From positions 748,586 to 812,585 of the forward strand of contig CAVYTA010000007.1 of the NCBI GenBank assembly GCA_963771355.1: a DNA stretch of 64,000 nt, in the 5' to 3' direction. Positions 13,248-50,740 of the stretch are shown here, one piece after another (the stretch's first letter is position 1; each line of letters starts with the position of its first letter). The notes below the pieces were generated by a model. That model was not told where the DNA came from. It worked only from the letters and a program-made list of their open reading frames with translations, and made no database searches. A program made the position numbers and the translations under genes. The DNA is from an uncultured Candidatus Rokubacteria bacterium. GTDB taxonomy: Bacteria; Methylomirabilota; Methylomirabilia; Rokubacteriales; CSP1-6.

Positions 13248-13311
<64 letters not shown>

Positions 13312-13324
<13 letters not shown>

Positions 13325-13401: not shown

Positions 13402-13406
13402 TTCGC

Positions 13407-25690: not shown

Positions 25691-25875
25691 GCCCGGACGA
25701 ATGTTAATCCTAGCAGCACCGTTCGCTCGGAAAGGCTGTCCGTATCGCTTTCATACAGTGAGCCACCGGTAGCGGGAAGGTGAAGTCGGGCGGGCCAGCG
25801 GGGCACGGAACATGGTAGCCACTTTCGGATTCGCGTTAGCTTTCTGGCAACCCAGCCTTGCGTGCTCCCTCGACG

Positions 25876-27968: not shown

Positions 27969-28067
27969 TGGTTGCGGGCCCCCGCAACCAACAAACACAA
28001 GGGGTTCGGCGCTCTCGCCGAGCCCCTTTCGTGTCTCAGTTAGCCGACTTGTCCCGAAACTTGTCCC
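27969..28067 (+). repeat. att junction 3 (perfect palindromic core plus arm)
   Basis: TGGTTGCGGG-CC-CCCGCAACCA, then an arm nearly identical to 13325-13401. Confidence 0.9.
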
Positions 28068-35101: not shown

Positions 35102-35482
35102 CGCGGTTGGGCGAGGCGGTCACGCACCGCGGCGGCCATCTGCGCCACCGTGGCCGCTTCTAGGATCACGGCCAGTGAGAGTTCCAGGCTCCACGTGGCC
35201 AGCACCTGCGATGCGATGCGCATGGCGGCGAGGGAGTCCCCCCAGGTCGAGGAACTGATCGTCGATGCCCACTGAGTCCAGATCGAGCACCGACGCCCAG
35301 AGGTCGGCGAGCCACCGCTCCAGCTCGTCGCGCGGCGGCGCGTACTGCGTGTCGAGGGGATAGGCAACCAGGTCGAGGAACTGATCGTCGATGTCCACTG
35401 AGTCCAGATCGAGCACCGACGCCCAGAGGTCGCCGAGCCACCGCTCCAGCTCGTCGCGCGGCGGCGCGTACTGCGTGTCGAG
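35095..35482 (-). pseudogene. NRPS-type carrier (PCP) domain 3' fragment, partly duplicated
   Basis: YAPPRDELERWLADLWASVL..VGIDDQFLDLGG(D)SLAAMRI; starts at the oriIS repeat. Confidence 0.75.
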
Positions 35483-35616
35483 AGGATAGGCAACATGAAC
35501 GCCCTCCGGCGGCGGGCGCCCCTGGCTTGGGTTCCCGTCACCGTGCTTGGGTCCCGTCCCCGTGACACAACCTGCCGGACTCGGACGCCAGCCGCCCCAG
35601 GAGCCGCCGGCACAGC
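35483..35616 (-). repeat. oriIS-end repeat R5 (diverged, internal ~20 bp duplication)
   Basis: AGGATAGGCAACATGAACGCC...CCAGGAGCCGCCGGCACAGC. Confidence 0.9.
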
Positions 35617-35711
35617 TGGGCAGTCGCGCTGGCGGCGACAGATGCTAGGCTGGCTGCTCAGAGGTCAGCGCGCGCGCGGCAGCGTCGCGAGCGCGGGGAG
35701 GACGTGCCGGC

Positions 35712-36889
35712 ATGAGCAACCTGCCCCCGGGATTGAAGCCGAGACCGCGACCGTCGATCTCCGCCCGCGCCCTCGACGAGAAGCTCCCGCCGCCGCTGCG
35801 CGCCTATCTCGAGCGCGCCGAGGCCGCGGTGGCCGAGCCCTTTCGCGGGATCACCGCCGGCGGCGCCGTGGTCCCCGGCCTGTTCCCGCTGCAGCGCACG
35901 GGCGTGTCGACGGCACCGATCCGCGAGGCCGCGGCGGCGTGGCTCGCCGCGCTGAGCCCGTCCCAGCGCGCGCGCGCCGCCTTCCCGGTGGACTCCGACG
36001 CCTGGCGGCGCTGGAGCAACATCCACCCCTTCATCATGCGCCACGGCGTCTCGCTCGACGAGCATGACCGAGCCGCAGCGCGAGCGGCGCTGGCCCTGCT
36101 GCAGCGCCACCTGAGCGCGGCCGGCTTCGAGACGCCCGCGACGTCATGCGGCTCAACGAGACGATCCGCGAGATCACCGGCCGCGACGACGAGTACGGCG
36201 AGTGGCTCTACTGGCTCAGCCTGTTCGGCAGCCGTCCGCAGACCGAGCCGTGGGGCTGGCAGCTCGACGGCCACCACCTCATCGTCAACTGCTTCGTCCT
36301 CGGCGACCAGGTCGTGATCACGCCGGTGTTCATGGGCTCGGAGCCGGTGGTCGCCGACGAGTGGCCTGTACGCGGGCACGCGCGTCATGCAGCGAGGAGC
36401 GCGACGGCCTGGCGCTGATGCGCGCCTCGACGCCGAGCAGCAGGCGGCGCGCGATCGCTCGGCGCACGGAGCTGCCCGGCGAGGTCGTTCACCGCCGCCT
36501 TCCGCGACAACTTCGAGCTGCGCTACGAGGGCATCCGCTACGAGCGAGCTCGCCGCCGGCCAGCAGCGACCAGCTGCTCGCGCTCATCGAGATCTACGTC
36601 GGCCGCATCGCGCCCGGGCACGCCGAGGTCAGGCTGGACGAGGTGCGCGGCACCTCGCCGAGACCTACTTCGCCTGGATGGGCGGCACGGCGACGACAGC
36701 GTCTTCTACTACCGCGTGCACAGCCCGGTCATCCTCATCGAGTTCGACCACCAGGGCGGCATCGCGTTCGACAACAACACGCCGTCGCGCAACCACATCC
36801 ACACCATCGTGCGCACGCCGAACGGCAACGACTACGGGAAGGACCTGCTGCGGCAGCACTACGCGCTGCACCACCGGCGTTCGGCCTAG
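35712..36889 (+). pseudogene. DUF3500-like protein, frameshifted
   Basis: [58 protein letters not shown]. Confidence 0.75.
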
Positions 36890-36904
36890 CGAGCGACGCT
36901 GCGG

Positions 36905-39900
36905 TCAGCTCGATCGCGGCCGCGTCGCCTCGGAGTCCAGCGTCGCGAGCTCCGCCTCGGCCTGCGACAGCCAGTGGCGCATGTCCATCTCGCGCAGCAT
37001 CGCGTGCGCGGTGCTCAGGTGTTGCTGGGCCGCCTCGGTGCGCCCCTGCCGCCGGGCCAGGACGCCCCGCGCCAGTTCGGCACGGGCGAGGAGGGGGCGG
37101 AGTCCGAGCTCCTGCGCGATCGACGAGGCGGCTACGAGGTGGGCGTCGACGCTCTCCAGCTCACCGAGCAGGAGCAGGGCCCGTGTCTCATTGCCTCGCT
37201 CGCCGCGCTGGCGAGCCAGCTCGAGGCCGCGGGCGATGTGGTGCTGGGCCGTGGTCGCCGCGCCGTGGACCATGTAGCCTTCGGCGATAAAGACGTGCAT
37301 GCGTGTCTCGTCGGATCGCCGCCCTCCCGCGTCGATCCTGTCGAGCGCGTGCCGAGCAAGGGGATGCCCTCGTCGGCCCTCCCCAACGCGCAGTGGCAGT
37401 GCGCGAGCACCGCCCCCGCGGCGAGCGACATGGCAGCCAGGCCAGCCGCCGCTCTCATGCCCTCCAGCGCGGCTTCGACGGTGGCGATCGCGGAGGGGTA
37501 GTGGCCTCGCCGCGCGAGGATGAGGCCTTGCCCGAGTCGAGCGGCGAGCACGGTCGGAGGATGGTCGATGGACTCGGCGAGCCGGATGGCCTCGTGAACC
37601 GTCTCGAATGCACCGTCGAAGTCGCCTAGCTCCGCTCGACACGCGGCGAGTTCGTTCCGCGCGAACGATGCGGGGTAGAGCGTACGTCCGAGCCGCTGCC
37701 GCTCCAGGTCGCCCTGGAGCAGGGAGATCACGCCCGCGAAGAGATCGATGGCTTTCCGGGCGTCGCCCGCGCTCTGCAGCACTATGCCCAGGTTCACGCC
37801 AGCATGGATCCGGTGCTCCCGCAACCCCTTTGACTGCGCCAGCGCCAGGGCCCGCTCGCCGGTCTCCCGCGCGCGGGGCAGCTCACCGGAGAACCAGAGC
37901 GCGTTCGTCTGGTTTGCCAGCACCCGCACCAGGCGCTCCTCGTTGCCGAGCCGCTCGGCGAGGCTGCGCGCGATCTCCATGTGCTGCGCGAACGCGTCGC
38001 GCTCGTTCAGGGAGAAGAGGGCCGCGCCGATCAGGCACCGCACCTCGATGGTATGGGCGACGGTGTCCGGGGTCTGTGGCAGCCGTCCGAACGCGTCGAT
38101 GGCGGTCTCGAAGTACGCCTTCTGGACCTGGGGCGGCGCCGACCGGTCACCGGCCCGGATGCCAGCGCGGGTACCGTAGAGGGCGGCCTTGTCCCAGTGC
38201 TCCCCGCGCACGGCATGGTGGCGAGCCGCTCGACGTGCTCGGCCAGCCGGTCGGCATGCAGTCGCTCGATGGCCGCCACGATCCGGGCGTGGAGCTCCCG
38301 CGGCGCTCACGGAGCACGCTCCCGTAGGCGACCTCGTGCGTCAGGGCGTGCTTGAACGTGTACTCCGCCTCCGGGAACAAGCGCGTCTCGTAGAGGAACT
38401 CGGCGGCCTGCAGCCGCGCGAGCCCTCGGCGGAGAGCGTCGTCCGACACGTCCGCGATGGCGGCCAGCAGCGTCGAGCGGGACGTCCTTGCCGATCACGG
38501 CGGCCGACTGGAGCAGGCGCTTGTCCTCGGGCGACAGCCGGTCGATGCGCGCGGCGAGGATCGCCTGGACGGTGGCCGGGACCTGGATCGCCCGGCAACG
38601 GTCGCGCCAGGCGATAGGCGCCGCGCTCGCCCGACCAGCGCCCTCGTCTCGACCAGCGTCCGCACGCTCTCCTCCAGGAAGAACGGATTGCCCTCCGTCC
38701 GCTCGATCAAGCAGCGCGCTTCAGCGGGCCGAGGCTCGCATCCTCGCCGAGCAGCGCGTCGAGCAGCTCCTCCGCGCTCTCGGGCGGCAGCGGGTCGAGC
38801 CGGAGCTGCGGGTAGTACGGTCTTGCTGCCCCAGCGGTGCTCGTACTCCGGCCGGTAGTTCACCAGCAGCAGGAGCCGCGCCGCCGGGAGGCTCTCGACC
38901 AGGCGTCGAGGCAGCGCCTGCGTCTCGGAGTCGATCCAGTGCAGGTCCTCGAAGACCAGCAGCAGCGGCTGCACCTGGCTCTCCCGCAGCAGGAGCCGCT
39001 TGAGCGCGTCGAGCGTCCGCTGGCGGCGCTGGGCGGGGTCGAGCGCCGCGCCACCGGGATCGTCGACCGGCACGTCCAGGAGCGCGAGGAGCGCGGGCAG
39101 CGCCGGCTCCAGGGCCGGTCGAGCGTCAGGAGCTTGCCCGTCACCTTCTCGCGGATCTCGCGCGCGTCGTCGCGGTCGCTCGATCCGGAAGTAGCCCTTG
39201 AGCAGCTCGATCACCGGCAGGTAGCACGTGGCCTTGCCGTACGAGACCGCGCCCGCCTCGAGCACGAGCCAGCCGTGCGATGCGGTGGGAGTGGATGAGC
39301 TCCCAGACCAGGCGCGACTTGCCCGACCCCCGGCTCGCCGACGACCGCGACGACCTGGCCGTGCCCGTCGCCGCGCCTGGTCGAGCGCGCGGTCGCAGCT
39401 GCGTCGAGCTCGCGCGTCGCGCCCGACGAACCGGGTCAGGCCGCGGGCCGCCGCGGCCTGCAGGCGCGTGCGCGCCGCGCCCGCCCCGGTCAGCTCGTAG
39501 ACCTCGACGGGCTCGGCCAGCCCCTTGACCGGCACCGGCCCGAGCGGCTCTCACCTCGACGTAGCCCTCGGCCAGCGCCAGGGTCGTCGGCGGTCAGAGC
39601 GATCGCGCCGGGCATCGGCAGCTGCTCCATGCGGGCGGCCAGGTGGGTGGTCTGGCCGACGGCGGTGTAGTCCATGTGCAGGTCGCTGCCGATCGCGCGC
39701 ACGACCACCTCGCCGGTGTTCAGCCCGACCCGGATCTGCGACCGTCGACGCCGTGCTCGCGGCGCGACCGCCTCGGCGTAGCGCGCGACCGCCTCCTGCA
39801 TGCCAGGGCGGCGTAGCAGGCGCGCACGGCGTGGTCCTCGTGGGCGAGCGGCGCGCCGAAGAGCGCCATGATGCCGTCGCCCATCACCTGGTTCACGGTG

Positions 39901-40283
39901 CCCTCGTAGCGGTGGACGGCGTCCATCATGAGCTCGAGGACGGGATCGAGGAGCGTGCGGCGTCCTCGGGGTCGCGGTCGGCGAGCAGCTCCATCGAGCC
40001 CTCGAGGTCGGCGAACAGGACGGTGACCTGCTTGCGCTCGCCCTCGAGCGCGGCCTTCGAGGTGAGGATCCGCTCGGCGAGGTGCCGGGCGTGTAGGTCG
40101 CGGGGCGCGGCGCGCGGCGGCAGCCGCGGCCACCGGGTGCGCACACGCCGAGCAGAACTTCGCCGCGGGGGCGAGCGGCGCGCCGCAGCTCGCGCACCGG
40201 GCCTCCAGGGGCGCGGCGCACTCGTGGCAGAACCTGGCTCCGGGCGGCGTGGCCGTCCGACATCGCGGGCACTGGATGGTCAT
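36905..40283 (-). pseudogene. Second zinc ribbon-cyclase-AAA-TPR protein, frameshifted
   Basis: MTIQCPRC, GERKQVTVLFADL, GDGIMALFGAP, LVFEDLHWID, TEGNPFFLEE, YTFKHALTHEVAY. Confidence 0.85.
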
Positions 40284-40411
40284 GTGAGCGGCTCGATGTT
40301 TGGGTTAGCCGATAATGCGGCCGCCGTCAATTCGCCGAGCCCGCCGGCGCCGCGGGGGTCGGCGACGGCGGCCAGGTCTCCTGCCGGGTAGCACCCGGTG
40401 GCCCTCGCGCG

Positions 40412-40766
40412 CTAGCCGCGTTGCGGGGTTGGCGCCGCCGGCCTGGGGCGGGCGCTGCGGGTCACCGTCACCTCGGAGCCCTTCACCTGGCTGCCGCAGT
40501 CCGGGCACTCGTAGCGCAGTCGCACCTCGTGGCCGCAGGGCGCGTGGACGAGGCGTGCGCGCTTGTCGACGTGGCGGGTGCCCCACTGGGCCAGCGCGCC
40601 AACCACCGTTCCCAGCTCGCGGCCGCGCTCGGTCAGTGTGTACTCCGCACGCGGCGGCCGGTCCGAGTAGAGCCGGCGCGACACCAGCCCCTGCTCCTCC
40701 ATCCACTTGAGGCGGTCGGAGAGGATGTTGGGCGCGATCCCGGTGAGCGAGTCGAGCAGGTCCTGG
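40412..40766 (-). pseudogene. HxlR-family regulator, 5'-truncated at repeat R4
   Basis: QDLLDSLTGIAPNILSDRLK...PPRAEYTLTERGREL; N-terminal helix missing. Confidence 0.8.
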
Positions 40767-40770
40767 CAGG

Positions 40771-40895
40771 AGGATAGGCAACATCAACGCCCTCCGGCGG
40801 CGGGCACCCGGGGGTCCGCACGGCGTGGGTCCCGTCCCCGTGACATAACCTGCCAGACCCGGACGCTGGCCGCCCCAGGAGCCGACGGCACCAGC
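40771..40895 (-). repeat. oriIS-end repeat R4
   Basis: AGGATAGGCAACATCAACGCC...CCAGGAGCCGACGGCACCAGC. Confidence 0.9.
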
Positions 40896-40905
40896 GGGGC
40901 CCTCG

Positions 40906-41172
40906 TTAGTCCTTCTTGTGCTTCAGGACCATGCCATCCTCCGCGACGTGCACCTCGTACTTTTTGTTGTCGCGGACGTACTCAACCTCGTACACCTTCT
41001 TTCCCTTTTGGGTCTCGCGCTCGATTTCCTTGATACTGGCCCCCTTCGTTTCCTTCTCAATCGTCGCCCGGACTGGGGCCGGCACCTGATCAATCGTCAC
41101 CTTGTCGCCCGCGAACACTACCGAGGGCAGTACCACCGACGCCGCCAGAATCAGCACCCCGAACTTGCGCAT
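40906..41172 (-). CDS. PepSY-like secreted protein
   Basis: GGAGG RBS, signal peptide, VPAPVRATIEKE...YEVEY...EVHVAEDG. Confidence 0.75.
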   Translation of the reverse strand: MRKFGVLILAASVVLPSVVFAGDKVTIDQVPAPVRATIEKETKGASIKEIERETQKGKKVYEVEYVRDNKKYEVHVAEDGMVLKHKKD

Positions 41173-41624
41173 ATGTTCTGTTCCTCCTGCGGCCGATGAT
41201 CGCCCAGATTCGATAGCCGCACAAGGGCGAGATCCAGCCGGCTGCCAGTTTGGTTCCAAGCAAGAGTGCATCCCCGCCTCGTTTTCCAGCAATCCTGGGA
41301 CTTCACCTGCCAGTCTGCTACCTGCTACCAAACTGCTACCCAAAGGCCCCCGTCAGCCCTCCCGCAGGGTTACGCCCCGGCCGCGGATTCCAGACCCTCC
41401 TCTCGCGGGAATGCTTCGTCGCGGCGGCTCGTCGAAGGATAGTCCCGAACGCGCCGGCCGGTTGACGGCGGCGATGTGTCCGGCATAGCATGTCCCTCAC
41501 TCGGCGGCTCGCTCGACGTGTGAAAAGGCCGTTGGAGTCCAAGATGATCCGCCTCGACACGCGCGCACGGGCGTCCGCGCTCGTACTACTCCTGTGTTCA
41601 TGCGTCACACCGAAGGAGACTTCT

Positions 41625-42299
41625 ATGGCAGCACAGACCGCCAATCTCTATCTCGAGGATCTCGACGACGCAAGCAAAACGAGGCAGCTCCCGAATAGCG
41701 ATCTCGCTGCGCTTCGCACCGTCGCAGACTGGATCAAGAGTTTCGTGACCAAGCCTCACAAGGATCTCGGCCGCGATGGGCCCGTGTGCCCCTTCGTGCC
41801 TGAAGCCATGCAGCGGAAGACTCTTTGGCTCGCTTCCGAACACATCGCTGGCCGCAGTGTGGCAGATGTGGTCCAGCTCGTAAACGGATACAAGACGCAG
41901 CTCCTGCAACAACCCTTTCATGGGGAGGGCGTTAATTACAACTCAATCGTCGTTGTTTTCACCGATCTGTCGGCGGATCGTACAAAAGGTCTCTTCGACG
42001 ACGTCCTGAAGCAACTTGCAGTTCCATCATATGTGGAGGATGGGCTGGTGATGGGAGGGTTCTACGAGAGCAACGAGGCAACTGCGATATACAATCGAAG
42101 CTTTCGACCATTCACGCCGCCCGTGCCGTTTCTGCTCATGAGGCATGCGGTCATCAGCGACTGGAAGTTCTTCTTGGACAACGACGACTGGCTCAACCGT
42201 TGGGCGCATCGCTATAGAGAGTCCGGAGTCCGGGCTCTCGCTGAGGAACTACGCCGCTTGCCATGGCGCGCGGGGGGCGACGAATCCCACAACAAATGA
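41625..42299 (+). CDS. DUF6875-like hypothetical protein
   Basis: AAGGAG RBS; PHKDLGRDGPVCPFVP and FRPFTPPVPFLLMRH. Confidence 0.6.
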   Translation: MAAQTANLYLEDLDDASKTRQLPNSDLAALRTVADWIKSFVTKPHKDLGRDGPVCPFVPEAMQRKTLWLASEHIAGRSVADVVQLVNGYKTQLLQQPFHGEGVNYNSIVVVFTDLSADRTKGLFDDVLKQLAVPSYVEDGLVMGGFYESNEATAIYNRSFRPFTPPVPFLLMRHAVISDWKFFLDNDDWLNRWAHRYRESGVRALAEELRRLPWRAGGDESHNK

Positions 42300-42569
42300 G
42301 CTCGGTACAACGAGTGTTCGGCGTGGTGGTCGGGCGCATTCGAGGCCACGTCGTCGAGAGTTTGTGGGCACGCTGGCCGCCGACGAGGTTCGGAAGCGGT
42401 ACCTCGATCGGTACGTTGGCCACGTTTTTCCTGCTGGTGCACGGAACCCGATCAGGTACCTGAACCTTCGCAAGAAGCCCGCTAAGCGCACGCTGCGCGC
42501 TAGAGCGGATCGCTAGCTCGCATGCATCCGCCCCAGCCGCCCGAGGTCGCGCTGGGGGCCCTCTTCAAG

Positions 42570-42627
42570 AGGATAGGCAACATCAACGCCCCCCGGCGGC
42601 GGGCACCCCACGCGTGGTCCCCGTCCC
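42570..42627 (-). repeat. oriIS-end repeat R3 (58 bp, shortened)
   Basis: AGGATAGGCAACATCAACGCC...GTGGTCCCCGTCCC. Confidence 0.88.
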
Positions 42628-45119
42628 ACCGGCGCCACGAAGCGCCTGGCGCGCTGTCGCCAGGAACTCCGGTTCGGTGGTGCTCGATTGCAGGAGGCGG
42701 CGGTAGATCGCTTCCGCAGCGAGGCGGTCGCCGCGCGCGACCAGGCACTGCACCGCGCCCACCAGTGCGCGGGGCTCGGCCGGTGAGCCCGGGGTCAGGT
42801 ACGCCGAGGTCAAATACATGTCGAGCGCGTCTTCATGTTGACCCGCGCCGCGGAGTATCTCTGCGACGCGGTACGCCGCCTCGCCGCTCGTCTCCCGGTC
42901 TTGGGTTCGCGCGAGACCGTTCGCAGGTAGGAGCTTTCGGTAAACGGCCACGGCCTCGTTCAACGCGCGCAGAGCGGTCAGGGAACTGCCGGCGCCGAGC
43001 AGCGCCAGCCGCGCCCATCTCGAGCCTTCTGCGACATATGCTGCCGTCATGTACCACTCGACCGCGTCCGCGTGCAGTCCCTCGGCGTTCAAGGTTCGAC
43101 CGAGGCGGTACGCAGCCTCCGCCGCAACCTCGCCATCGGTCTGGGCGACCACGCCGTAGCAGGAGGGGTGGCATCCGGTCCACTTCCCCGAAGTCCTCGA
43201 GAAGCCGAGCGTGCGAGAGCAGGCTCTGCGTTGATCGCTCGATGCGAGGATAGTCCCGGAGCACCCGGTCGTAGGCGGCGAGCGCCTCCCGGCGGCGGCC
43301 GCCCGTCTCGTCCATCTGGGCGAGCAGGAGCAACGCGCGCGGTGCGGCGTCGCCGCCAGCAGCCGCCGCCTGCTCGAGCTGGGCACGAGCCTGAACCGTC
43401 GCGCCCGTTCGGAACAGGGCCTCGGCGAACTCCACCTGCTCGCTCCGACCCATCGGCGTACCGGGGTAACGCGCGACCAGCTTTTCATAGGCCCGGCGTG
43501 CGATCGGCCATTGTCCGGTGGAAGCCGACGCTGCGGCCACCCGGGCCAGAAGCACGGGAGCCGCTGGATAGGAGGGAAAGTCATCGACGAGCCGGCCAGC
43601 CAGCGCGTCCACGCTCACGTCGGACCAGCCGCGGTTCGCTGCTGCGAGCAGCACGAAGCCGTGAAGCAGGTACGGGGTGCGCTCGCGTTCTTGCCCCAGC
43701 AAGCGGGTGGTGAACGACTCGAGAGGCTCGGTACCACTCGCCCGGACGCCTCCACCAGCGCCGTGGCCCCACGACGCATTACGCGGCGGTTCGTCCAGAC
43801 CCCCTTCGGCTCCCGGCACCGCGAGCGCCGCGCTCAGTCTCGCACTCGCGTCGATGACCAGAGGCTCGCTCGACTGAACCAGCACGTCGAGCTCGCGCAC
43901 CGCTTCATCCTCGTGGTCTCGGCGGAGCGCGAGAACGGATCGGCTCAATCTCGCGATCCCAGCGTGCAGCGTCGATGGATACTGCGCGATGAGCCGGTGG
44001 AACAGGGCGTGAGCCGCCACCGTGTCGCCCCCCTGGCTTGCCACCTCCGCGGCGAGCACGCACGCGAGGGGAGCGCGAGCATCGGCCGGAAACTTGTCGG
44101 CGACCCCGGTCCACGATCGTCGGGCGCGGGCGCGATCACCAAGCCGAAACTCTGCCCAACCCAGTGCCATGGCGGCGCCAGGGGTTTCCGGTGCCTTTTC
44201 GTGCCTCGACAGAAATTCCCGGTAGCGAGCGGCGGCCTGGCCGTACGAACGCATTCCATACGCGGCGTCGGCGGCGACGAGGAGAGCCGCTGACCGCACA
44301 GCCTCCGGCACACCGCCGCGGAGCAACATCTCGGCCCCGCTTTGAGCCTGGCGGAAGTTGCCTGTCGCGAGGTCCGCCTGGGCCTGGCTCAGTAATGTCT
44401 TCCTTGCCGCCAGAGCACCGGCCGCAGGGGAGGTAACGCCGTCTCCTCCTGTCGCCGTCGCGCCGTCATTACCGCCGCCGGGCGCACCGGCACCCGCACC
44501 ACCGCCTCCGGCACTCCCCGGCGCCGGGCCCGAGCTACCGGCGGCGCCGCTACTAGCGCCAGAGCCACCGCCACTGCCGGACCCGCCCGCACTACCCGAG
44601 CCCCCGCCCGCGCCGGAGCCACCGCCACTGCCGGCGCTGCTGCCCCCCGCACCACTGCCGCCACCCGAGGCACCGCCGCCGCCCGAGCCACCGCCGCCGC
44701 CCGAGCCACCGCCGCCGCCCGAGCCACCGCCGCCGCCCGAGCCGCCACCGCCGCCCGCCACCGCCACCGCCCGAACCACCGCCACCGCCCGAGCCACCGC
44801 CACCGCCCGAGCCACCGCCACCGCCCGAGCCACCGCCACCGCCCGAGCCACCGCCACCGCCCGAGCCACCGCCACCGCCCGAGCCGCCTCCCCCGCCTCC
44901 GCCACCCCCGCCGCCGCCTCCGCCACCCCCGCCGCCGCCTCCGCCACCCCCGCCGCCTTTGGCGATAAGGACGTGTCCGTGCGTGTCGCTGGTATCGCTC
45001 GGCGCCAGTCTGACCGTCGAATCGTCCTTCGGGGCAGCGGTGACGCGGGGAGCCGCTATCGGGATGGTCAAGCCGATCGCGAAGAGCGCCGCAAGGATGG
45101 CGCGGTAGATGGAGACCAT
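42628..45119 (-). CDS. Secreted TPR protein with long Gly/Ser linker, frameshifted, 3' end runs into R3
   Basis: Signal peptide MVSIYRAILAALFAIG, (GGGGGS)n, then TPR-like helices (AYEKLVARYP, AYDRVLRDYP). Confidence 0.7.
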
Positions 45120-45395
45120 CGGGGCAACTGGCTGCACTCGTTGTGCCCGTGACCTCGGCGATCTGCGCTGCGCAAACTCGGGCGGCCGGGCCAGGGAACC
45201 CTGGCGGGCTGCGGCATGCCCCCGGGCGAGAGTGATCACCCCGCGTTCCTTCCTCGACGCGTTCTGACTTCGACTTATACTGCTTCGCGCCGGCCGCACC
45301 GTCAAGGCCCCCCTTTGGCCTCGGGGGCAGCGACACCTGAGCCCACGGGCTGAAAAGCTAGAGGAACCCGAGCGCGCCCAGCGCCACCCTCCTTG

Positions 45396-45509
45396 AGGAT
45401 AGGCAACATCAACGCCCTCCGGCGGCGGGCACCCTACGCGTGGCCCCCGTCCCCGTGACCTAACCGCCCAGACTCAGACGCCAGCCGCCCCAGGAGCCGC
45501 TGTCACAGC
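45396..45509 (-). repeat. oriIS-end repeat R2
   Basis: 114 bp; 3 substitutions versus 48464-48577 by eye. Confidence 0.93.
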
Positions 45510-46074
45510 GACCTTCTTGCCGCCCGAGAGTGGAGGCCGTCAAAAGCCGCCAGCGTTGCCGGGCTACCGGCCACATTTCGTTGTCGACGGCACGACTGAC
45601 TATCTCGGCGTCATCTTCACCAAAGCGGGTGCGGCGCCAGAATTCGGGAAAGCCGTCCGCGCGACAGCTCAGTGCGTATACGACGGCGTCGACTACTCAC
45701 GCCGGTTGCCCGGGACCCGGTTCAACGTCGTCGAGGGTACCCGCGTCGTCGCGCACGGCGTTGTTCTCCGATTGTTCTCCCACGATAGCGAGCGCGCACC
45801 CCTGCCGACGACGCCAGACCTTTTCCGCGAGGAGCTTCGACTTTACGTGACTCTTGCTCGGCAGCTTGGCCGAAATCGAAGAGGTCCACGGTCAACCGGC
45901 GAGTGTCGTTCTCGAGCGCTGGATCTCGCGCGAAGAATCGGCGCGCCGCTTCGATCGGGCTGTGCGGCGCGGCGGAATATCTGCAACCGTTCCTGTGCTG
46001 CCACTCCCTCAGGCAAGCAGCAAAGGAATCACGCTCAACGCCTCGTCTCGTACCTGGTCAGGACGGAATCACGC

Positions 46075-46638
46075 TCAACGCCTCGTCTCGTACCTGGTCA
46101 GGACCACGCCGCCGGGAAACGTCCGCGTCTCCACCAGGTTCAGGTTCACCCAGCTATCCAGCGCGGTGAAGAACGGTGTGCCGCCGCCCACCAGCACCGG
46201 ATGGGTCACGATCTCGTACTCGTCGATCAGCCCGGCCCGCATGGCCGCCCCAGCGAGCGCTGCGCCACCAACCCTCATCGGCTCGCCGTCCTCGGCCTTG
46301 AGCCGGGTGATCTCCGCGACCGCGTCGCCGGTGACCAGGCGAGTGTTCCAGTCGACCTTGTCGACCGTCGAGGAGAACACCACCTTCGGCGTATCCCGCC
46401 AGTTCCGCGCAAACTCGATCTGCGCCGGGGTGGCACCCGGCTGCTGGTCGCCGGTCGGCCAGTAGGAACTCATGGTTTCCCACAGCTTGCGCCCGTACAA
46501 CAACAGGCCGATCGCTAGCTCCTGGTCGAGCCACCACTGAAACAGCTCGTCGCTCGGCCCGCTCCAGCCGAGGTCGTCGCCGGGCGCGGCGACGTAGCCG
46601 TCCAGGGTCAGGTTCATGCCGTAGATCAGTTTCCGCAT
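46075..46638 (-). CDS. Dihydrofolate reductase (RibD C-terminal) family protein
   Basis: MNLTLDGY, LLYGRKLWE, PKVVFSST, GLIDEY, PVLVGGGTPFF. Confidence 0.9.
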   Translation of the reverse strand: MRKLIYGMNLTLDGYVAAPGDDLGWSGPSDELFQWWLDQELAIGLLLYGRKLWETMSSYWPTGDQQPGATPAQIEFARNWRDTPKVVFSSTVDKVDWNTRLVTGDAVAEITRLKAEDGEPMRVGGAALAGAAMRAGLIDEYEIVTHPVLVGGGTPFFTALDSWVNLNLVETRTFPGGVVLTRYETRR

Positions 46639-46964
46639 GGCGCCATGCCTTTCTGTCAGTCGGTTTCGGGAGTCTAGACCGGCTCGGCGCAGACAACTGA
46701 TCAATGCGCGATCTGCTTTACAACTTTCACGGGCTCGAATGCCGCTTCACCCATCCCGATGGCACCGTCGTCGATGTCGCTCTGACCACGCTTCGCCGTG
46801 GTGAACTTGTTGTCGTCGATTTCGCGGCTGCGGTGCCGATCGATGCAGGATTCCTCGCTGAGTTCTGTAGAACACGCCCCGGAGGCAAGCTGCCCCGTCT
46901 CGACTTCGCGGGCGCGTTACGACAGCTCGACGCTCTGGGAGCCCAAGGGGAGCTCGCCGTCCAG

Positions 46965-47077
46965 AGGATAGGCAACATCAACGCCCTCTGGCGGCGGGCA
47001 CCCCACGCGTGGCCCCCGTCCCGTGACCTAACCGCCCAGACTCGGACGCCAGCCGCCCCAGGAGCCGCTGTCACAGC
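46965..47077 (-). repeat. oriIS-end repeat R1
   Basis: Identical to 48464-48577 except one C in a homopolymer. Confidence 0.95.
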
Positions 47078-47458
47078 GTCCTCGCCGACCGCTCGCAGTT
47101 CTTCAAGGATCTCAGCGCCCCGTTCTACGGCGCCAACCGGCCGGGGGCCAAGGTCTCACAAGGGCTGCGCGACTCCTTCTGGCTCCAGGGGATGCAGGCC
47201 GGGTTCAAGGGCGTCATCGATTGCATCAAGGCCTTCTCGGAGACGAACTTCACCGAGGACCTCAAGAAGATCGACGTGCCGACCCTGATCCTGCACGGCG
47301 ACGACGACCAGATCGTGCCAATCGGCGCCTCGGCCCTCCTTTCCGCCAAGCTGGTCAAGGCGAACATGCTGAAGGTCTACCCGGGCCTGCCCCACGGTAT
47401 GTGCTCGACCCACAAGGACCAGGTCAACGCGGATCTTCTGGCCTTCCTGAAGGGGTAG
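47078..47458 (+). pseudogene. Non-heme chloroperoxidase (alpha/beta hydrolase), 3' half only
   Basis: [19 protein letters not shown]...[17 protein letters not shown]...HGMCST; starts mid-gene at the R1 boundary. Confidence 0.88.
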
Positions 47459-47553
47459 CTGGCACCATGATCTGGGGCATGTCGGGACCCCCGACGACGA
47501 CGTCCGTCCGCTCATCTTCCTGATGTCCGACGAGGACGTCACCCTCTCGCGGC

Positions 47554-48441
47554 TCAGAAGCGAAATGTCAGTCCCGTCGCGATGGTCTGCACGTCCTTGG
47601 CGTTGGTACCGTACTCGAGAAACAGGTCCCAGTGCCGGAACAACGTGACGGACCCGCCGATCGTGGCGTTCAGGGGATGAGTCGGCGCCTGCCGGGCCTC
47701 GAAGCTGACCTTCCCGACGTTCGGCACGGTCACGGTCGCGCTCGCCGTGCTCTCGGTACCCCAGTACATCCCGCCGAGCCAGAGGCGGACCGGGGCGTAC
47801 AGGACCTTGCCGTTCCACCCGACCCGGATGGTCCCCACGAGCGCCTTGAAGCGATCGTCGAACCCGATATCGGTCTGCGTGTAGTTCACGTCGCCAAGAA
47901 CGAAGAACTGGCGGTACCCTCCCGCCAGGGTGACCCCGGCCCCTCCCACGAAGCCCTCCAGCTGACTCTTGCCCGACACATCGAAGGTCAGCGAGCCGGG
48001 CAGCGGGCCCGGCCGCGGCACCGTCACGGTGCCCCGCGTGGTGGTGTTGTTGATCACGGCGCCGACGAGGGCATAGACGTCGAGGAAGGGCAGCAGCCAC
48101 GCATCGAACCGCAGCGCCGCCACGCTGGTGTGGCTGCGGGACCCGAGGCTCACGAACCGGCTCACGTCACGAAGGGGTGCGCCATTGAGGCCCAGCCGCA
48201 CATCGGAGACGTCGACATCCCGCTCGATGTAGTAGTAGACGGCGGAAAGCCCGAGCGGCAAGGGGAGCTCGTACCCGCGCTTCACGGCCTCGCCCGCGAA
48301 GAACGGGAGCGCGTGCGGCCATTGCCCTTCGTCCGTGGCTGCGATGGCGCCGGCGGCCGAGCGAGGCGGGTCCGCCGCCGCGGTGGGAGTTACGACGACC
48401 AGCACGAGAAGGAGCACGATCGGGACGGGCGAGACGCGCAT
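47554..48441 (-). CDS. Putative outer-membrane beta-barrel protein
   Basis: Signal peptide, amphipathic beta strands, C-terminal Phe (LTFRF); starts 22 bp after the element end. Confidence 0.65.
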   Translation of the reverse strand: MRVSPVPIVLLLVLVVVTPTAAADPPRSAAGAIAATDEGQWPHALPFFAGEAVKRGYELPLPLGLSAVYYYIERDVDVSDVRLGLNGAPLRDVSRFVSLGSRSHTSVAALRFDAWLLPFLDVYALVGAVINNTTTRGTVTVPRPGPLPGSLTFDVSGKSQLEGFVGGAGVTLAGGYRQFFVLGDVNYTQTDIGFDDRFKALVGTIRVGWNGKVLYAPVRLWLGGMYWGTESTASATVTVPNVGKVSFEARQAPTHPLNATIGGSVTLFRHWDLFLEYGTNAKDVQTIATGLTFRF

Positions 48442-48628
48442 GCCGGGGTCATCATTTCACGAGAGGATAGGCAACATCAACGCCCTCTGGCGGCGGGCAC
48501 CCCACGCGTGGCCCCCGTCCCCGTGACCTAACCGCCCAGACTCGGACGCCAGCCGCCCCAGGAGCCGCTGTCACAGCGCACATTAGCGGCCTCCTTGCCG
48601 ATCGAGCGAGCCGACCCGGGTGAGCGAC

Positions 48629-48744: not shown

Positions 48745-50224
48745 TCAGGACGCGGCGGCGTCGGACTCGGGAGGGGCGGGGCCGGGACTCTGCCCCGAGT
48801 GGCCGAGGGCGAGGTGCGCGAGGATCTTCCGGATGACCGCGGGATCGTGCAGCGTGGCGATCAGGCGTAGGCGGCCTACACAATGGGCACACGCCAGCAC
48901 GTCGATGCCGAACGCCCGGTGCATCAGGGCCGCCCAGCTCCAGGCGCGCGGACTGGCGGTCTTCACCCCCGTGCCGTCCGGACCTGCGGCCAGCGGCGCC
49001 GTCGAGGCCGTGGGCTCGGGCACGGGCCGTCCATAGACGACCACTCGCGCGCGCCAGCGTGCGCGCGAGGCCAACACGCCATGGCAAATCAGCAAGTTGG
49101 TTTCGGGCCGCGGCGTCATCGCCGCCAACCGCTCCAGGAACTCCAGCGGCTCGAAGACCAACTCTCGTGTCCCGTCGTGCCACGCCCTCTTGAGCTCCAG
49201 CGCGACGCGGCCGTCGCCCCGCAGCCGCAGGCGCTCCTGCGCGAAGGGCGGACGCAAGACGTATCGACACAAACGCTCCACCCCCGCCCGATCGTTCGCC
49301 GGCACCCACACGTTGGCGTGCAGGTCGAAGCCCTCCAGGTGCGCCTGCCGCGGCCCGCGCGACGGCACGGCCGCCGTGTCGCGCGCCTCGCCGAGCCGCC
49401 GCACCCGCGCCCCCGCGCGCGAGCCCAGCGCCACCCGCCCCTGAACCGAGGCCCCGACGATCCCCGCCATTATGGGGGACTCGTCCGCGAGGGGATCTGC
49501 CGGCCCCGTCGCGTCGTCGCCGGGCTCCAGGCCCCGGCGCACGAGCAGCCGTTGCACCCGCTGGCGGATCGTCGCCAGCGCTGCCGCGACCTCGGCGTCG
49601 CTCGGTGCCGGCGCCGGCTGAAACGCCAGCGCGCCCCCGGGCGCTTCGGTGAACACTCCGTCCAGCACGAGGGTGTGAAAGTGCAGGTTCACGTTCAACC
49701 CGCTGCCTGCGCGCTGCATCACGGTGACGCTGCCGGTGCGTCCACCCGGCACGCCGCACTCCCGGGCGCCGCGCGCGTACACGTCGAGCAGCACGCGTGT
49801 GTACACCCGCAGCACCGCGCGGCTCAGTCCGTGATTCCACGCCATCTGGTACCGGAGCCGATACGGCACCGTCAGGACCCACTGCCGCACCGGCACCCAC
49901 GGCAACACCGCGTCCACCAGATGCGCGGCGCGCTCCGTCATCCGCCGGCCACCGCAACTGGGGACACCACCCCCGCCCTTTACACGAAAACGGCACCAAA
50001 TGCTCGCGCGCGCAGCCCTCGCACCGAAACCGCGCCACGCCGTGTTCCAACACGCCGCACGTCAGAAACTCCCGGAACTCGCGCTCGACGAACTGCGGCA
50101 GGCCCGCGCCGTCGCCGGTCTCCGCCACCGCGCGCAGGAAGACCTCCAGGTGCTCGGCGATGACCTGGTGGAGCACGGTGTGCTCGGCGTCGCGGGGCCG
50201 GTAGACCGCTCGCTGGAGGGCCAT
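48745..50224 (-). CDS. IS91/ISCR-family HUH transposase (one frameshift near 49960)
   Basis: Zn-binding Cys cluster, [11 protein letters not shown] (HUH), [11 protein letters not shown] (single-Tyr ISCR type), C-terminal CxxC. Confidence 0.92.
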
Positions 50225-50649
50225 GGCCCCCAGGTGGGGTGACGCCGCCGACCGGGACAATGCTGAGAGAGTGATACACCGATCAGGGTGGGGATGGCGG
50301 CGGCCGAACCGCTGCCGGCGGTGCGTCTACGTTCCGGAACGGTCGGGAGGGCAGCCTCGCGCGCGCGGCGATCGCGTGGTGTGACCCGGGGAGGGCGGTG
50401 GTCTGTATGTCCATGGCGTCTGGCCGGAGCTGGATGGTCCTCCCCGCCTCAGAGCACATCGAACTCTGGGGTAGCCGAGGCAGTGCGCAGGGAACGTCGA
50501 GCGGCACATGTTCGGTGGCGTGCTGTTGTCGAGCTGGCGTGGACCGCACAGGTTCTGAGACATTTGGTGAACACGTGGTCGTGACTGAAACACGACGGAT
50601 TTAGATCGGGATCTCGAAGCAGAAGCTCAGCGACCTGTTCGCCGGCAAG

Positions 50650-50740
50650 TGGTTGCGGGCCCCGCAACCGACAAACACAAGGGGTCGGCGCTTCCGCCGA
50701 GCCCCATGTGTCGGCTAGCCGACTTGTCCCGAAACTTGTC
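50650..50740 (+). repeat. att junction 5
   Basis: TGGTTGCGGG-C-CCCGCAACCG, then ACAAACACAAGGGG hairpin and ACTTGTC twice. Confidence 0.85.

What the first reader, a model, noticed from the sequence alone, without database searches (positions are those of the whole stretch)
35483..48577. Polarised array of oriIS-end repeats separating captured DNA fragments next to an IS91/ISCR-like HUH transposase
Seen: downstream of the transposase (48745-50224, minus) the element's terminal ~114 bp (R0, 48464-48577) recurs five times in the same orientation, at 46965, 45396, 42570 (short), 40771 and 35483. Unrelated 1.4-5.2 kb inserts lie between the copies. Several inserts are cut mid-gene at a repeat edge: chloroperoxidase 3' half, HxlR without its N-terminus, TPR gene without its stop, PCP domain. 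Identity to R0 falls with distance: R1 has 1 indel, R2 has 3 substitutions, R4 and R5 have many changes plus insertions. Known: IS91/ISCR elements mobilise DNA by rolling-circle transposition, normally capturing DNA beyond terIS. Inference: a CRISPR/integron-like capture array in which new fragments are added at the transposase-proximal ori end with duplication of the repeat. I do not recognise this as a described system.
Basis: partly seen in the sequence, partly recalled or inferred. Interest (0 to 1): 0.92.

Follow-up and report, generated by a model that had tools for sequence, protein, structure and literature searches.

The report
Stacked solo origin-ends of IS91 transposon
The repeat is the "origin" end of a rolling-circle jumping gene of the IS91/ISCR family; six copies facing the same way sit between unrelated DNA pieces that each copy likely dragged along, which is known behaviour for this family seen here in an unusually orderly stack.

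Summary
Observation confirmed. A ~115-nt repeat (R) occurs at 48464, 46965, 45396, 42570 (58 nt), 40771 and 35483, all on the + strand, next to a Y2-HUH transposase.

R is the oriIS end of an IS91/ISCR-family IS (IS1, 48464-~50671). Its outer 23 nt match the ISVsa3/ISCR2 terminus in register.

In the 10 genomes sampled, 32 of 42 R 3' ends switch to unrelated DNA within 3 nt of the same point (...CACAG). Solo R is therefore a discrete miniature ori element, like the IS801 right-end miniatures produced by one-ended transposition.

Three [R + right-hand DNA] units recur elsewhere at 98-99% identity, starting at or inside R and lying in different contexts. That fits ori-primed mobilisation.

Similar same-strand arrays occur in two congeners. 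The identity gradient is real but partly reflects different R subfamilies. Two other arrays show no gradient.

Both transposase copies are frameshifted, and the cargo is mostly broken genes. The region lies in a variable island at an initiator-type tRNA-Met gene.

Verdict: a dense, mostly fossil product of known IS91 biology, not a demonstrated CRISPR/integron-like system. Polar accretion at the ori junction is not excluded. This scan has noted similar arrays in other genomes.

The parts
13248..13324 (+). tRNA-Met (CAT), initiator-type by a C1:A72 mismatch read from the sequence. It marks the left edge of the variable island that holds the array.
   Evidence: ARAGORN and Rfam tRNA at 64.3 bits. 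Synteny with G006 is lost after 12573 and resumes at 55714. G002 is syntenic at 94% over 1-12500.
17277..17745 (+). Internally deleted, non-autonomous IS derivative: R plus ~175 nt of interior joined to ~190 nt of the ter region.
   Evidence: blastn: 17277-17551 matches 48463-48751 and 17555-17745 matches 50515-50705.
25875..28065 (+). Second IS copy (IS2), 91% identical to IS1. It has several 1-2-nt indels inside the transposase gene and carries the same tRNA-derived tail.
   Evidence: Indel list. Pfam finds only a partial Y2_Tnp match (positions 81-157 of 183) in its 628-codon open frame.
35242..35493 (+). 126-bp tandem duplication spanning the left junction of R5. It includes the first 11 nt of R5.
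   Evidence: the repeat finder D6, 98%; sequence.
35483..35617 (+). R5, a solo ori end of the subfamily that has the 21-nt insertion. Left flank ...GTCGAG.
   Evidence: 94% to C7:709504, 86% to R0.
35618..40770 (.). Cargo 5: DUF3500 gene (+, broken after ~80 profile positions) and a zinc-ribbon/adenylate cyclase/AAA_16/TPR gene (-, spread over at least 3 frames).
   Evidence: Pfam. The cyclase family has many paralogues at 72-86% identity.
40771..40892 (+). R4, a solo ori end of intermediate subfamily. Left flank ...GGCAGG.
40893..42569 (.). Cargo 4: PepSY-like gene (40906-41343, -); an inverted fragment of IS interior (41454-41531); DUF6875 gene (41490-42299, +).
   Evidence: Pfam. Inverted repeats I1 and I17. 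A 98.7% copy of 40853-41461 lies at C6:1494052-1494660, with the same right end.
42570..42627 (+). R3, an ori end truncated after 58 nt by a ~120-bp deletion. Left flank ...TTCAAG.
   Evidence: G002 and G006 carry the full R plus 65 bp at the homologous place.
42628..45395 (-). Cargo 3: TPR-repeat gene with an 18-bp-period Gly/Ser-rich repeat. It is frameshifted here and lacks its stop.
   Evidence: Pfam. 97.9% identical to G002:C15:14137-17027 and 95-99% to G006:C9. One long open frame in both relatives: 981 and 1053 codons.
45396..45510 (+). R2, solo ori end. Left flank ...TCCTTG.
   Evidence: The same left junction in G002 and G006 carries R of a different subtype.
45511..46964 (.). Cargo 2: ORF with no family match (+); exact 40-bp tandem duplication (46025-46104); RibD_C gene (46075-46704, -); short DUF6896-like ORF that runs into R1.
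   Evidence: Pfam; the repeat finder D8.
46965..47078 (+). R1, solo ori end, identical to R0 except for a 1-nt deletion. Left flank ...GTCCAG.
47079..48463 (.). Cargo 1: the 3' ~40% of an alpha/beta-hydrolase (chloroperoxidase-like) gene, starting at the R1 edge (+); then a complete 295-aa ORF with no family match (47554-48441, -).
   Evidence: Pfam. Alignment with intact homologues in G017 and G053. The hydrolase and the 295-aa ORF map to different contigs in G001 and G004.
48464..48578 (+). R0, the oriIS end of IS1. Left flank ...CACGAG.
   Evidence: Both IS copies and the deleted derivative begin here. The terminal 23 nt match the ISVsa3 terminus in register at 17 of 23 positions.
48745..50260 (-). 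IS91/ISCR-family transposase gene of IS1: Zn-binding domain plus Y2 HUH domain, interrupted by a 1-nt indel near 49963.
   Evidence: Pfam; frame analysis. 39% identity over 99% of its length to ISVsa3-family transposases on plasmids.
50480..50671 (+). terIS region, ending in a perfect 8-bp hairpin (50651-50669). The 3' arm of the hairpin is identical to the 3' end of the tRNA-Met.
   Evidence: The region is shared by five copies in this genome. Three copies end here: C3, C7:702788 and G006:C22. Fold z = -2.03; 4 of 200 shuffles fold as well.
50660..50740 (+). Tail: a copy of the last 11 nt of the tRNA-Met plus ~80 nt of its downstream DNA, carried behind the ter hairpin. Likely captured by read-through of terIS.
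   Evidence: 13314-13406 matches 50660-50749 at 84%. IS2 carries ~210 nt of the same region, and a solo copy lies at 33428-33548.

Best explanation
The repeat is the oriIS (origin) end of an IS91/ISCR-family rolling-circle insertion sequence. The array is most likely a stack of one-ended transposition products: miniature ori ends, each predicted to have mobilised the DNA on its IS-interior side.

Shown:
- IS1 runs from R0 (ori, 281 nt beyond the transposase stop) to a hairpin terminator at ~50671.
- Solo R copies end at one fixed point (...CACAG, plus 0-2 nt).
- R is preceded by a biased flank: G at -1, a purine at -2.
- Three [R + right-hand DNA] units recur elsewhere at 98-99% identity. They start at or inside R, and their surroundings differ.

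Inferred:
- The transposase nicks at the flank|R junction. Replication displaces the strand rightwards.
- Stopping early at the internal CACAG site gives 113-116-nt solo origins. Running past it drags adjacent DNA until a tetranucleotide-like stop.
- Each product re-inserts 3' of a target tetranucleotide in one orientation.
- Insertions cluster head-to-tail because the junction beside a resident origin, and the end of every unit, are themselves target-like sites.
- Recombination between R copies and small deletions then reshuffle the stack.

The stack is now largely fossil. Both transposase genes are frameshifted, and most cargo genes are broken.
For: Family and ends:
- Y2_Tnp and Zn_Tnp_IS91 domains. 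39% identity over 99% of the length to ISVsa3/ISCR2 transposases.
- The terminal 23 nt of R match the ISVsa3 ori terminus in register at 17 of 23 positions. The distance from the transposase stop to the end is 281 nt here and 235 nt in ISVsa3.
- IS1, IS2 and the deleted derivative all begin at the R left edge.
- A ter hairpin is present.

Discrete solo element:
- Of 42 R 3' ends in G000 plus loci from 9 relatives, 10 continue into IS interior. The other 32 (29 distinct) change to unrelated DNA within 0-3 nt of the same point.

Target bias:
- Among 34 distinct left flanks, G at -1 in 33 and a purine at -2 in 28. In transposase orientation these read 5'-C(T/C)NN.
- The window flanks read CTCG, CTGG, CAAG, CTTG, CCTG and CTCG. 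Three of these tetranucleotides (CTTG, CTCG, CTGG) are in the IS91 insertion-site table of PMC13181058 (passages read).

Units that move:
- TPR unit [R + 65 bp + gene]: 97.9% identical to G002 against 94% for the syntenic core, and 95-99% to G006 against 77-84%. The three left flanks differ. The R on its right is of a different subtype in each genome.
- Unit C7:709502-711374: 99.1% identical to G002:C15:103470-105340, starting at R, with both flanks different.
- [R4 3' part + PepSY gene]: 98.7% copy on C6 with the same right end.

Tandems and recurrence:
- Tandems show insertion exactly at R boundaries: R-R in G006 L041 and own C3; 20-nt and 34-nt stubs followed by a full R.
- Same-strand arrays recur: 9 of 9 R on C7:709-797 kb, 8 of 8 in G006:C9:877-891 kb, and 4 of 5 in G002:C15:92-104 kb.

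Precedent (passages read, PMC3189936):
- IS801 yields 229-, 360- and 679-nt right-end miniatures that end at a consensus tetranucleotide, in more than 26% of events.
- IS801 can also mobilise adjacent gene fragments.

Precedent (PMC13181058):
- 82 bp of oriIS plus the adjacent tetranucleotide suffice for transposition.
- Termination fails in 1-10% of events.
Against: - No empty site was found. For the solo R copies whose flanks were compared (18 after leaving out the two members of an R-R tandem), the only left-right pairings were each copy's own locus, among the whole G000 genome and the fetched loci. Simple insertion of a solo R is therefore not directly shown.
- Neither transposase copy is intact. 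Within the genus, only fragments were found with this query. No activity can be claimed.
- Signs of recombination or illegitimate joining are plentiful: a chimeric R (G2_16914); different R subtypes at one shared junction; an inverted IS fragment at 41454-41531; a 126-bp duplication across the R5 junction; and cargo 1, whose two genes are not neighbours in relatives.
- Bardaji et al. concluded that most natural IS801 fragments arise by reorganisation rather than one-ended transposition.
- R as a whole is not predicted to fold better than shuffled sequence (z +0.6 to +1.2).
- The flank consensus is degenerate. The invariant G could belong to the element rather than the target.
- Read-level support for the assembly of the array could not be obtained.
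Confidence: 0.6

Rival explanations
1. Polar, integron-like accretion. The transposase cleaves the junction beside the resident origin R0. It would insert each incoming [R + cargo] strand exactly there. The array would then grow at the transposase-proximal end and record the order of capture.
For: - Identity to R0 falls with distance: 99, 97, 95, 83, 76%.
- In all three arrays examined, the IS or its remnant lies at the same end (downstream in the rolling-circle direction): the window, G002 L065 and G006 L040.
- R-R and stub-R tandems show joining exactly at an R left edge.
- The tetranucleotide beside oriIS is the enzyme's own cleavage site (PMC13181058, passages).
Against: - R4 and R5 belong to other subfamilies whose closer relatives lie elsewhere, so the gradient is not simple in-place ageing.
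- The G006 array runs MITE-type, IS2-like, R5-type, R0-type, R0-type, MITE-type. The G002 array runs 95, 83, 90, 95% to one reference. Neither shows a gradient.
- Tandems are equally explained by insertion at the end of a resident unit.
- No strain pair differing by a proximal unit was found.
- The cargo is mostly pseudogenes, so there is no sign of selection for a collecting function.
Confidence: 0.18
2. Pure decay and recombination. Several full IS copies inserted in one orientation. The present pattern then came only from homologous recombination between R copies, illegitimate deletions and duplications. No [R + cargo] unit ever transposed.
For: - A chimeric R, and different R subtypes at one shared junction.
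- Microhomology at the R1-hydrolase joint and at the R3 deletion.
- An inverted IS fragment and tandem duplications.
- Pervasive pseudogenes.
- The conclusion of PMC3189936 for natural IS801 fragments.
Against: - Random deletions would not give 32 of 42 R 3' ends breaking within 3 nt of one another in 10 genomes.
- Two units begin exactly at the R left edge in two genomes with unrelated left flanks.
- The [R4 + PepSY] copies share a right end that is not at an R.
Confidence: 0.15
3. The structure is made by a tRNA-targeting integrase stacking islands in tandem at tRNA-Met. The repeats would be att-type sites rather than transposon ends.
For: - The island starts at tRNA-Met.
- Partial tRNA copies (positions 29-77 and 33-77) bound islands in G006, and one lies at C5:997822 in G000.
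- Copies of the tRNA 3' end plus its downstream DNA recur at 27978, 33428 and 50660.
Against: - R shares no sequence with the tRNA.
- R heads the IS copies and matches the ISVsa3 terminus.
- No integrase domain was found among the 94 ORFs scanned from 13.3-35.5 kb or the 30 ORFs chosen from 29.5-53.7 kb.
- R copies also occur far from any tRNA, on C3 and C6.
- At most this explains why the region is variable. It does not explain the array.
Confidence: 0.03
4. Assembly artefact: dispersed repeat copies wrongly chained together.
For: - The genome is in 8 contigs with 2.16% contamination.
- Read laying was not possible.
Against: - The R - TPR gene - R arrangement is independently present in two other assemblies.
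- The inserts are unique sequence of 1.4-5.2 kb between repeats of only 115 nt.
Confidence: 0.02

Closest known systems
IS801 right-end 'miniature' fragments and one-ended transposition (IS91 family; Bardaji et al. 2011, PMC3189936, passages read)
   Same: - Fragments that keep only the ori (right) end and stop at a fixed internal tetranucleotide.
- They arise from premature termination of rolling-circle transposition.
- The same element can also carry adjacent gene fragments.
- The fragments lie near rearrangement joints.
   Different: - Here the miniature is shorter: 113-116 nt against 229, 360 and 679 nt.
- It outnumbers IS-attached ends (32 against 10 in the sample).
- It is stacked head-to-tail, with different cargo between copies, in three genomes of one genus.
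- Nothing was shown experimentally here.
ISCR elements, especially ISCR2/ISVsa3 and ISCR1 complex class 1 integrons
   Same: - Closest named transposases: 39% identity over 99% of the length.
- oriIS lies 200-300 nt beyond the transposase stop and has a similar terminal motif.
- Variable DNA abuts the ori side (PMC6218425, passages).
   Different: - ISCR arrays described in the papers listed are amplifications of one unit with full ISCR copies. I saw those papers as search listings only.
- Here the repeats are solo ori ends, the cargo differs from unit to unit, and no resistance genes are involved.
- The host is a high-G+C soil bacterium.
IS91 itself (one-ended transposition; PMC13181058, passages read)
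   Same: - Distinct ori and ter ends.
- A subterminal palindrome at ter.
- No target duplication.
- Insertion next to a tetranucleotide (CTTG, GTTC, and rarely CTCG, CTGG, CTGT).
- 82 bp of oriIS plus the tetranucleotide suffice for transposition.
   Different: - The flank consensus here is looser: 5'-C(T/C)NN in transposase orientation.
- There is no orf121.
- The ter hairpin shares 13 nt with the 3' end of tRNA-Met.
Helitrons (eukaryotic rolling-circle transposons; PMC4778049, search listing and abstract only)
   Same: - A Y2 HUH enzyme.
- Gene-fragment capture by read-through of a hairpin terminator.
- Abundant non-autonomous copies.
   Different: - Helitrons carry a fused helicase, have other end motifs and insert at AT.
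- The resemblance is one of mechanism, not of family.
Integron cassette arrays
   Same: Same-orientation repeats separate unrelated DNA segments next to a recombinase-type gene.
   Different: - No tyrosine integrase, attI/attC sites or cassette promoter.
- The segments are often gene fragments or pseudogenes in either orientation.
- The repeats are transposon ends.

Membership tests
IS91/ISCR family insertion sequences | Transposase with the Y2 HUH catalytic domain (Pfam Y2_Tnp) | tested here: met
   48745-49941 (-): E 5.5e-21, 75.8 bits, profile positions 1-179 of 183. This locus and IS2 are the only two Y2_Tnp loci in the genome.
IS91/ISCR family insertion sequences | N-terminal zinc-binding domain (Zn_Tnp_IS91) | tested here: met
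   49942-50260 (-): E 3e-10. In IS1 it is out of frame with the catalytic domain because of a 1-nt indel. It is continuous in IS2.
IS91/ISCR family insertion sequences | oriIS end downstream of the transposase 3' end, with a conserved terminal motif | tested here: met
   The R left edge lies 281 nt beyond the stop. The terminal 23 nt match the end of ISVsa3 at 17 of 23 positions in register. The ISVsa3 end was defined from three plasmid copies that diverge at one point 235 nt beyond the stop.
IS91/ISCR family insertion sequences | terIS end with a subterminal palindrome; no terminal inverted repeats | tested here: met
   An 8-bp perfect hairpin at 50651-50669; z = -2.03. Three copies end just after it. 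No inverted repeat between the two IS ends appears among the 25 pairs.
IS91/ISCR family insertion sequences | Insertion beside a specific tetranucleotide, without target-site duplication | tested here: inconclusive
   Among 34 distinct left flanks, G at -1 in 33, a purine at -2 in 28, and C or A at -4 in 24. No duplicated flank was seen by eye at IS1 or IS2. The consensus is degenerate and the G may belong to the element.
IS91/ISCR family insertion sequences | One-ended transposition: ori alone mobilises itself and adjacent DNA | not testable with these tools
   Indirect only: 32 of 42 R 3' ends break at one point, and three [R + cargo] units recur.
Integron-like or CRISPR-like capture array | A dedicated integrase or adaptation module beside the array | tested here: not met
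   No Pfam recombinase, integrase or Cas domain was found in the 94 ORFs scanned from 13.3-35.5 kb or the 30 ORFs chosen from 29.5-53.7 kb. The only mobility genes found are the two broken IS91-type transposases.
Integron-like or CRISPR-like capture array | Ordered addition at one end (proximal = newest) | tested here: inconclusive
   The window shows a gradient, but across different R subfamilies. Arrays in G006 and G002 show none. No strain pair differing by one unit was available.
Integron-like or CRISPR-like capture array | Units are functional cassettes or spacers of defined kind | tested here: not met
   The units are 1.4-5.2 kb. They hold genes on either strand, a 3' gene fragment, frameshifted genes and an IS fragment.
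MITE (miniature inverted-repeat transposable element) | Terminal inverted repeats and target-site duplication | tested here: not met
   R has different ends (AGGATAGG... and ...CACAGC) and no flanking direct repeat. It is a one-ended miniature, not a MITE.

The most novel reading that the evidence does not exclude
IS91-type transposases turn the junction beside a resident origin into a landing pad. Incoming ori-primed strands, each carrying whatever DNA lay behind a solo origin, are joined exactly there. This builds polar, integrase-free cassette arrays: a bacterial counterpart of Helitron capture with integron-like order. In this lineage it is seeded at the initiator tRNA gene, whose 3' end the element's terminator hairpin copies.
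Probability: 0.2. Interest if true: 0.7.

Novelty: new variant of a known kind. Interest (0 to 1): 0.4.

Why it matters
IS91/ISCR elements are blamed for moving resistance and virulence genes, yet natural traces of one-ended transposition are rare and disputed.

This locus and its relatives give many solo origins with a common stop point. They also give several origin-plus-cargo units that changed place between genomes whose conserved flanking block is 94% or 77-84% identical. That is a natural data set for asking how these elements stop, what they carry and where they land.

If the landing site proves to be the origin junction itself, it would explain why such ends pile up head-to-tail in islands of unrelated bacteria.

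As it stands, the finding is a well-preserved example of known biology, not a new system.

Tried and rejected
The run index lists 14 of 24 runs, from 6 studies, holding at least half of the sampled words of 45300-48700. Nothing was laid, so this is not used as evidence.

2. Empty-site search. I compared 350-nt flanks of the solo R copies against the G000 genome and all fetched loci. Apart from the two members of an R-R tandem, whose neighbour is itself an R, the only left-right pairings were each copy's own locus. This is inconclusive, because only parts of the relatives were on hand.

3. Donor loci. The hydrolase fragment has no second copy in G000. Its nearest homologue is 89% identical, in G002:C19. 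No locus with an R inserted in an intact hydrolase gene was found.

4. I first thought R1 and R2 extend ~20 nt into IS interior. For R1 this is wrong: those bases are hydrolase gene. For R2 it is unresolved.

5. I considered a [R5 + cyclase gene] unit shared with C6:1495797-1498045. I dropped it because the gene is inverted relative to R between the two loci.

6. HxlR next to R2: no Pfam match.

7. Folding R as ssDNA gives nothing better than shuffles. Only the small terminal palindrome of R0-type copies and the ter hairpin stand out.

8. An integrase was sought in the island and not found.

9. R as an independent target site rather than the IS end. I rejected this because all 10 IS-interior starts are preceded by at least the 3' part of R, and the R terminus matches the ISVsa3 end.

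10. Four literature searches found no paper describing head-to-tail arrays of orphan oriIS ends with differing cargo. The library lacks most subscription journals, and no supplements were read.

11. The scan's notes hold no look-alike of R by sequence.

Full report
**What is there**

A ~115-nt sequence (R) lies at 48464, 46965, 45396, 42570, 40771 and 35483, always on the + strand. Identities to R0 are 99, 97, 95 (first 58-60 nt only), 83 and 76%. E-values in the 5.5-Mb genome run from 2e-58 to 8.5e-21. The left edges are sharp and begin AGGATAGGCAAC.

Immediately right of R0 lies an IS91-type transposase gene on the minus strand. Y2_Tnp matches 48745-49941 (E 5.5e-21), and Zn_Tnp_IS91 matches 49942-50260 in another frame.

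**The element**

A blastn of 48300-51000 against the genome shows three things:
- a second copy (IS2) at window 25875-28065, 91% identical over 2 kb;
- an internally deleted 470-bp derivative at 17277-17745 that keeps R, ~175 nt of interior and ~190 nt of the other end;
- several end fragments.

All three begin exactly at the R left edge. R is therefore the terminal segment of the IS on the side 281 nt beyond the transposase stop.

The opposite end is a region shared by five copies. It finishes in an 8-bp perfect hairpin at 50651-50669 (z = -2.03). Three copies stop just after it: C3, C7:702788 and G006:C22.

The transposase is 39% identical over 99% of its length to ISVsa3 (ISCR2)-family transposases on plasmids. 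I defined the ISVsa3 end from three plasmid copies that diverge at one point 235 nt past the stop. Its last 23 nt match the outer 23 nt of R in register at 17 positions.

Membership in the IS91/ISCR family is met on the transposase domains, on ori position and motif, and on the ter palindrome.

**State of the transposase**

The genome has only two Y2_Tnp loci.
- IS1 carries a 1-nt indel near 49963 that splits the zinc-binding motif from the catalytic domain.
- IS2 carries at least five frame-changing indels relative to IS1.
- With the IS1 protein as query, only G006 among 7 congeners gave matches, and both were fragments.

An assembly error at the single IS1 indel cannot be excluded.

**Solo R is a discrete element**

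I collected R 3' ends from G000 and from loci of nine relatives.
- Of 56 pattern matches, 14 were unrelated sequence and 42 were R ends.
- 10 of the 42 continue into IS interior (...CACAGCGCACATTAGCGG...).
- 32 (29 distinct after removing shared units) change to unrelated DNA within 0-3 nt after CACAG. One unit, R4, changes at CAC.

Random deletion would not do this.

This matches what Bardaji et al. showed for IS801. Right-end fragments of 229, 360 and 679 nt, each ending at a consensus tetranucleotide, arise by one-ended transposition in more than 26% of events. IS801 can also carry pieces of an adjacent gene (PMC3189936, passages read).

For IS91, 82 bp of oriIS plus the adjacent tetranucleotide suffice for transposition. 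Termination fails in 1-10% of events (PMC13181058, passages read).

**Flanks**

Among 34 distinct left flanks, position -1 is G in 33, -2 is a purine in 28, and -4 is C or A in 24.

Read in transposase orientation, the window's six flanks are CTCG, CTGG, CAAG, CTTG, CCTG and CTCG. Three of these tetranucleotides (CTTG, CTCG, CTGG) are in the IS91 insertion-site table. The consensus is loose, and the invariant G may belong to the element.

**Do R and the DNA to its right travel together?**

Three cases say yes.

(i) The TPR unit.
- In G002 and G006 a full R, 65 bp and one long open TPR frame (981 and 1053 codons) match window 42626-45509.
- Identity is 97.9% to G002 and 95-99% to G006.
- The conserved block left of the island is only 94% (G002) and 77-84% (G006) identical.
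- The three left flanks differ.
- The R that follows the unit is R0-type in G000, R5-type in G006 and chimeric in G002.
- So the left R is linked to the cargo and the right R is not.
- The window copy has since lost ~120 bp (half of R3, the 65 bp and the gene's stop) and gained a frameshift.

(ii) The unit at C7:709502-711374.
- It is 99.1% identical to G002:C15:103470-105340.
- It starts at R, and both flanks are unrelated.
- Relative to the conserved block, units (i) and (ii) lie on opposite sides in the two genomes.

(iii) Window 40853-41461, the 3' part of R4 plus the PepSY gene.
- It has a 98.7% copy at C6:1494052-1494660.
- The copy ends at the same base, and that base is not at an R.

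The direction, with cargo on the IS-interior side of the origin, is the direction of rolling-circle read-through.

**Junction details**

- The hydrolase fragment after R1 begins at about codon 171-175 of intact homologues in G017 and G053. The joint shows a 3-nt microhomology.
- No second copy of the hydrolase exists in G000. The nearest homologue is 89% identical, in G002.
- R-R tandems, in which the first R ends at CACAG, occur in G006 and on own C3.
- Stubs of 20 and 34 nt precede full R copies. A 126-bp duplication spans the R5 junction.
- Cargo 1 is itself composite. Its two genes lie on different contigs in G001 and G004.
- An inverted IS fragment sits at 41454-41531.

Recombination and illegitimate joining have clearly also acted on this region.

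**The gradient**

An alignment and tree of 20 R copies gives three groups:
- R0-type: R0-R3, two G006 copies and two G002 copies, with IS2 nearby;
- R5-type, with a 21-nt insertion: R5, C7:709504, C6:1495797 and two G006 copies;
- a third type: the deleted derivative, C3 and G006 890754.

R4 is intermediate. R5 is 94% identical to C7:709504 but only 86% to R0. The fall in identity along the array therefore partly reflects different source subfamilies.

The G006 array mixes types without order. The G002 array reads 95, 83, 90 and 95% against one reference. Both may have been rearranged since they formed.

**Polarity and recurrence**

- All 9 R pieces on C7 between 709 and 797 kb are on the + strand. 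The other 14 in the genome are mixed.
- G006:C9:877-891 kb has 8 of 8 on one strand. G002:C15:92-104 kb has 4 of 5.
- In all three arrays the IS or its remnant sits at the end that is downstream in the rolling-circle direction.

That regularity, together with the tandems, is what keeps the polar-accretion reading alive. The tetranucleotide beside a resident origin is the enzyme's own cleavage site and could serve as the acceptor. I could not test this.

**Context**

- The array lies in a variable island. Synteny with G006 stops at 12573 and resumes at 55714.
- An initiator-type tRNA-Met gene sits at 13248-13324.
- No integrase was found.
- Genes across the island are often broken.

The ter hairpin's 3' arm and the following bases (13 nt) are identical to the tRNA's 3' end. 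IS1, IS2 and the deleted derivative carry 70-210 nt of the tRNA's downstream DNA behind the hairpin, and a solo copy lies at 33428-33548. I read these as nested read-through captures at the ter side. That reading is inferred, not shown.

**What stays open**

- Read support for the assembly, and any search for circles, could not be obtained.
- No empty site for a solo R was found in the data on hand.
- No enzyme activity can be inferred.
- Four literature searches found no description of such arrays. The library is incomplete and I read passages only.
- The scan's own notes list similar head-to-tail stacks of orphan IS91 ori ends in at least six other genomes. These are unchecked AI notes, not evidence. 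They suggest the architecture is common.
- No claim here rests on the unpublished genome G016.

**Verdict**

The finding is a real, dense and comparatively informative example of IS91-family one-ended transposition products. I class it as a new variant of a known kind, with modest interest.

Noticed in passing
window 50651-50671, 13312-13324; tails at 50660-50740, 27978-28188, 33428-33548, 17634-17752: The IS terminator hairpin (GGTTGCGG...CCGCAACC) shares 13 nt with the 3' end of the initiator-type tRNA-Met. Three IS copies carry 70-210 nt of the tRNA's downstream DNA behind it, and one solo copy of that tail lies at 33428. Either nested read-through captures from an ancestor sitting at the tRNA, or the tRNA end acting as a pseudo-terminator or target.
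   Followed up: partly
window 13280-15192 and G000:C5:997822-999733: A 1.9-kb segment is duplicated at 99% on contig C5. It runs from tRNA-Met position 33 through the PCMT methyltransferase gene. On C5 only the 3' half of the tRNA is present, like an att remnant of an integrated island. G006 has similar partial tRNA copies at C9:775897 and 718282.
   Followed up: partly
window 12573-55714: About 43 kb with no synteny to G006 and lower G+C (60-66% over 14-35 kb). It is full of split or truncated genes: an MBOAT fragment; a second cyclase/AAA_16 gene at 20203-21570 spread over frames; IucA/IucC pieces; DUF2332 over two frames (24795-25750); an AhpC fragment.
   Followed up: partly
In my Pfam scan the IucA_IucC and DUF2332 matches are each spread over two overlapping ORFs in different frames. 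The copy in this genome may therefore be frameshifted.
   Followed up: no
window 33729-34254: A ~420-540-bp repeat unrelated to R, with copies at 88-95% in G002 (C14, C15) and G006 (C9, twice). No Pfam match in its ORFs. Possibly another small mobile element.
   Followed up: no
window 35242-35493 and 46025-46104: Two recent tandem duplications. One is 126 bp (98%) and spans the R5 left junction, including the first 11 nt of R5. The other is an exact 40-bp duplication inside cargo 2.
   Followed up: partly
window 44498-44993: An 18-bp-period repeat (11-12 copies) encoding a Gly/Ser-rich low-complexity stretch near the N-terminus of the TPR gene. This part is the least conserved between G000 and G006 (86-90%).
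   Followed up: no
window 3417-3598: 6S (SsrS) RNA gene, Rfam 82.2 bits.
   Followed up: no
G000:C7:709469-709502; L068 (G006:C22) about 11719-11739; L038/L040 just after the R of the TPR unit: Short stubs of the R start (20-34 nt, or R positions 8-24) sit directly before or after full R copies, as if initiation or termination at the origin had misfired repeatedly.
   Followed up: partly
L065 17321-18048 (G002:C15:105320-106047): In G002 the 1.7-kb cargo of the C7:709504-type unit is followed by the 5' part of a transposase gene and the ter region. That gives an ori-cargo-ter composite. The G000 copy stops 20 nt into that remnant, at ...GCAGCTCGG.
   Followed up: partly
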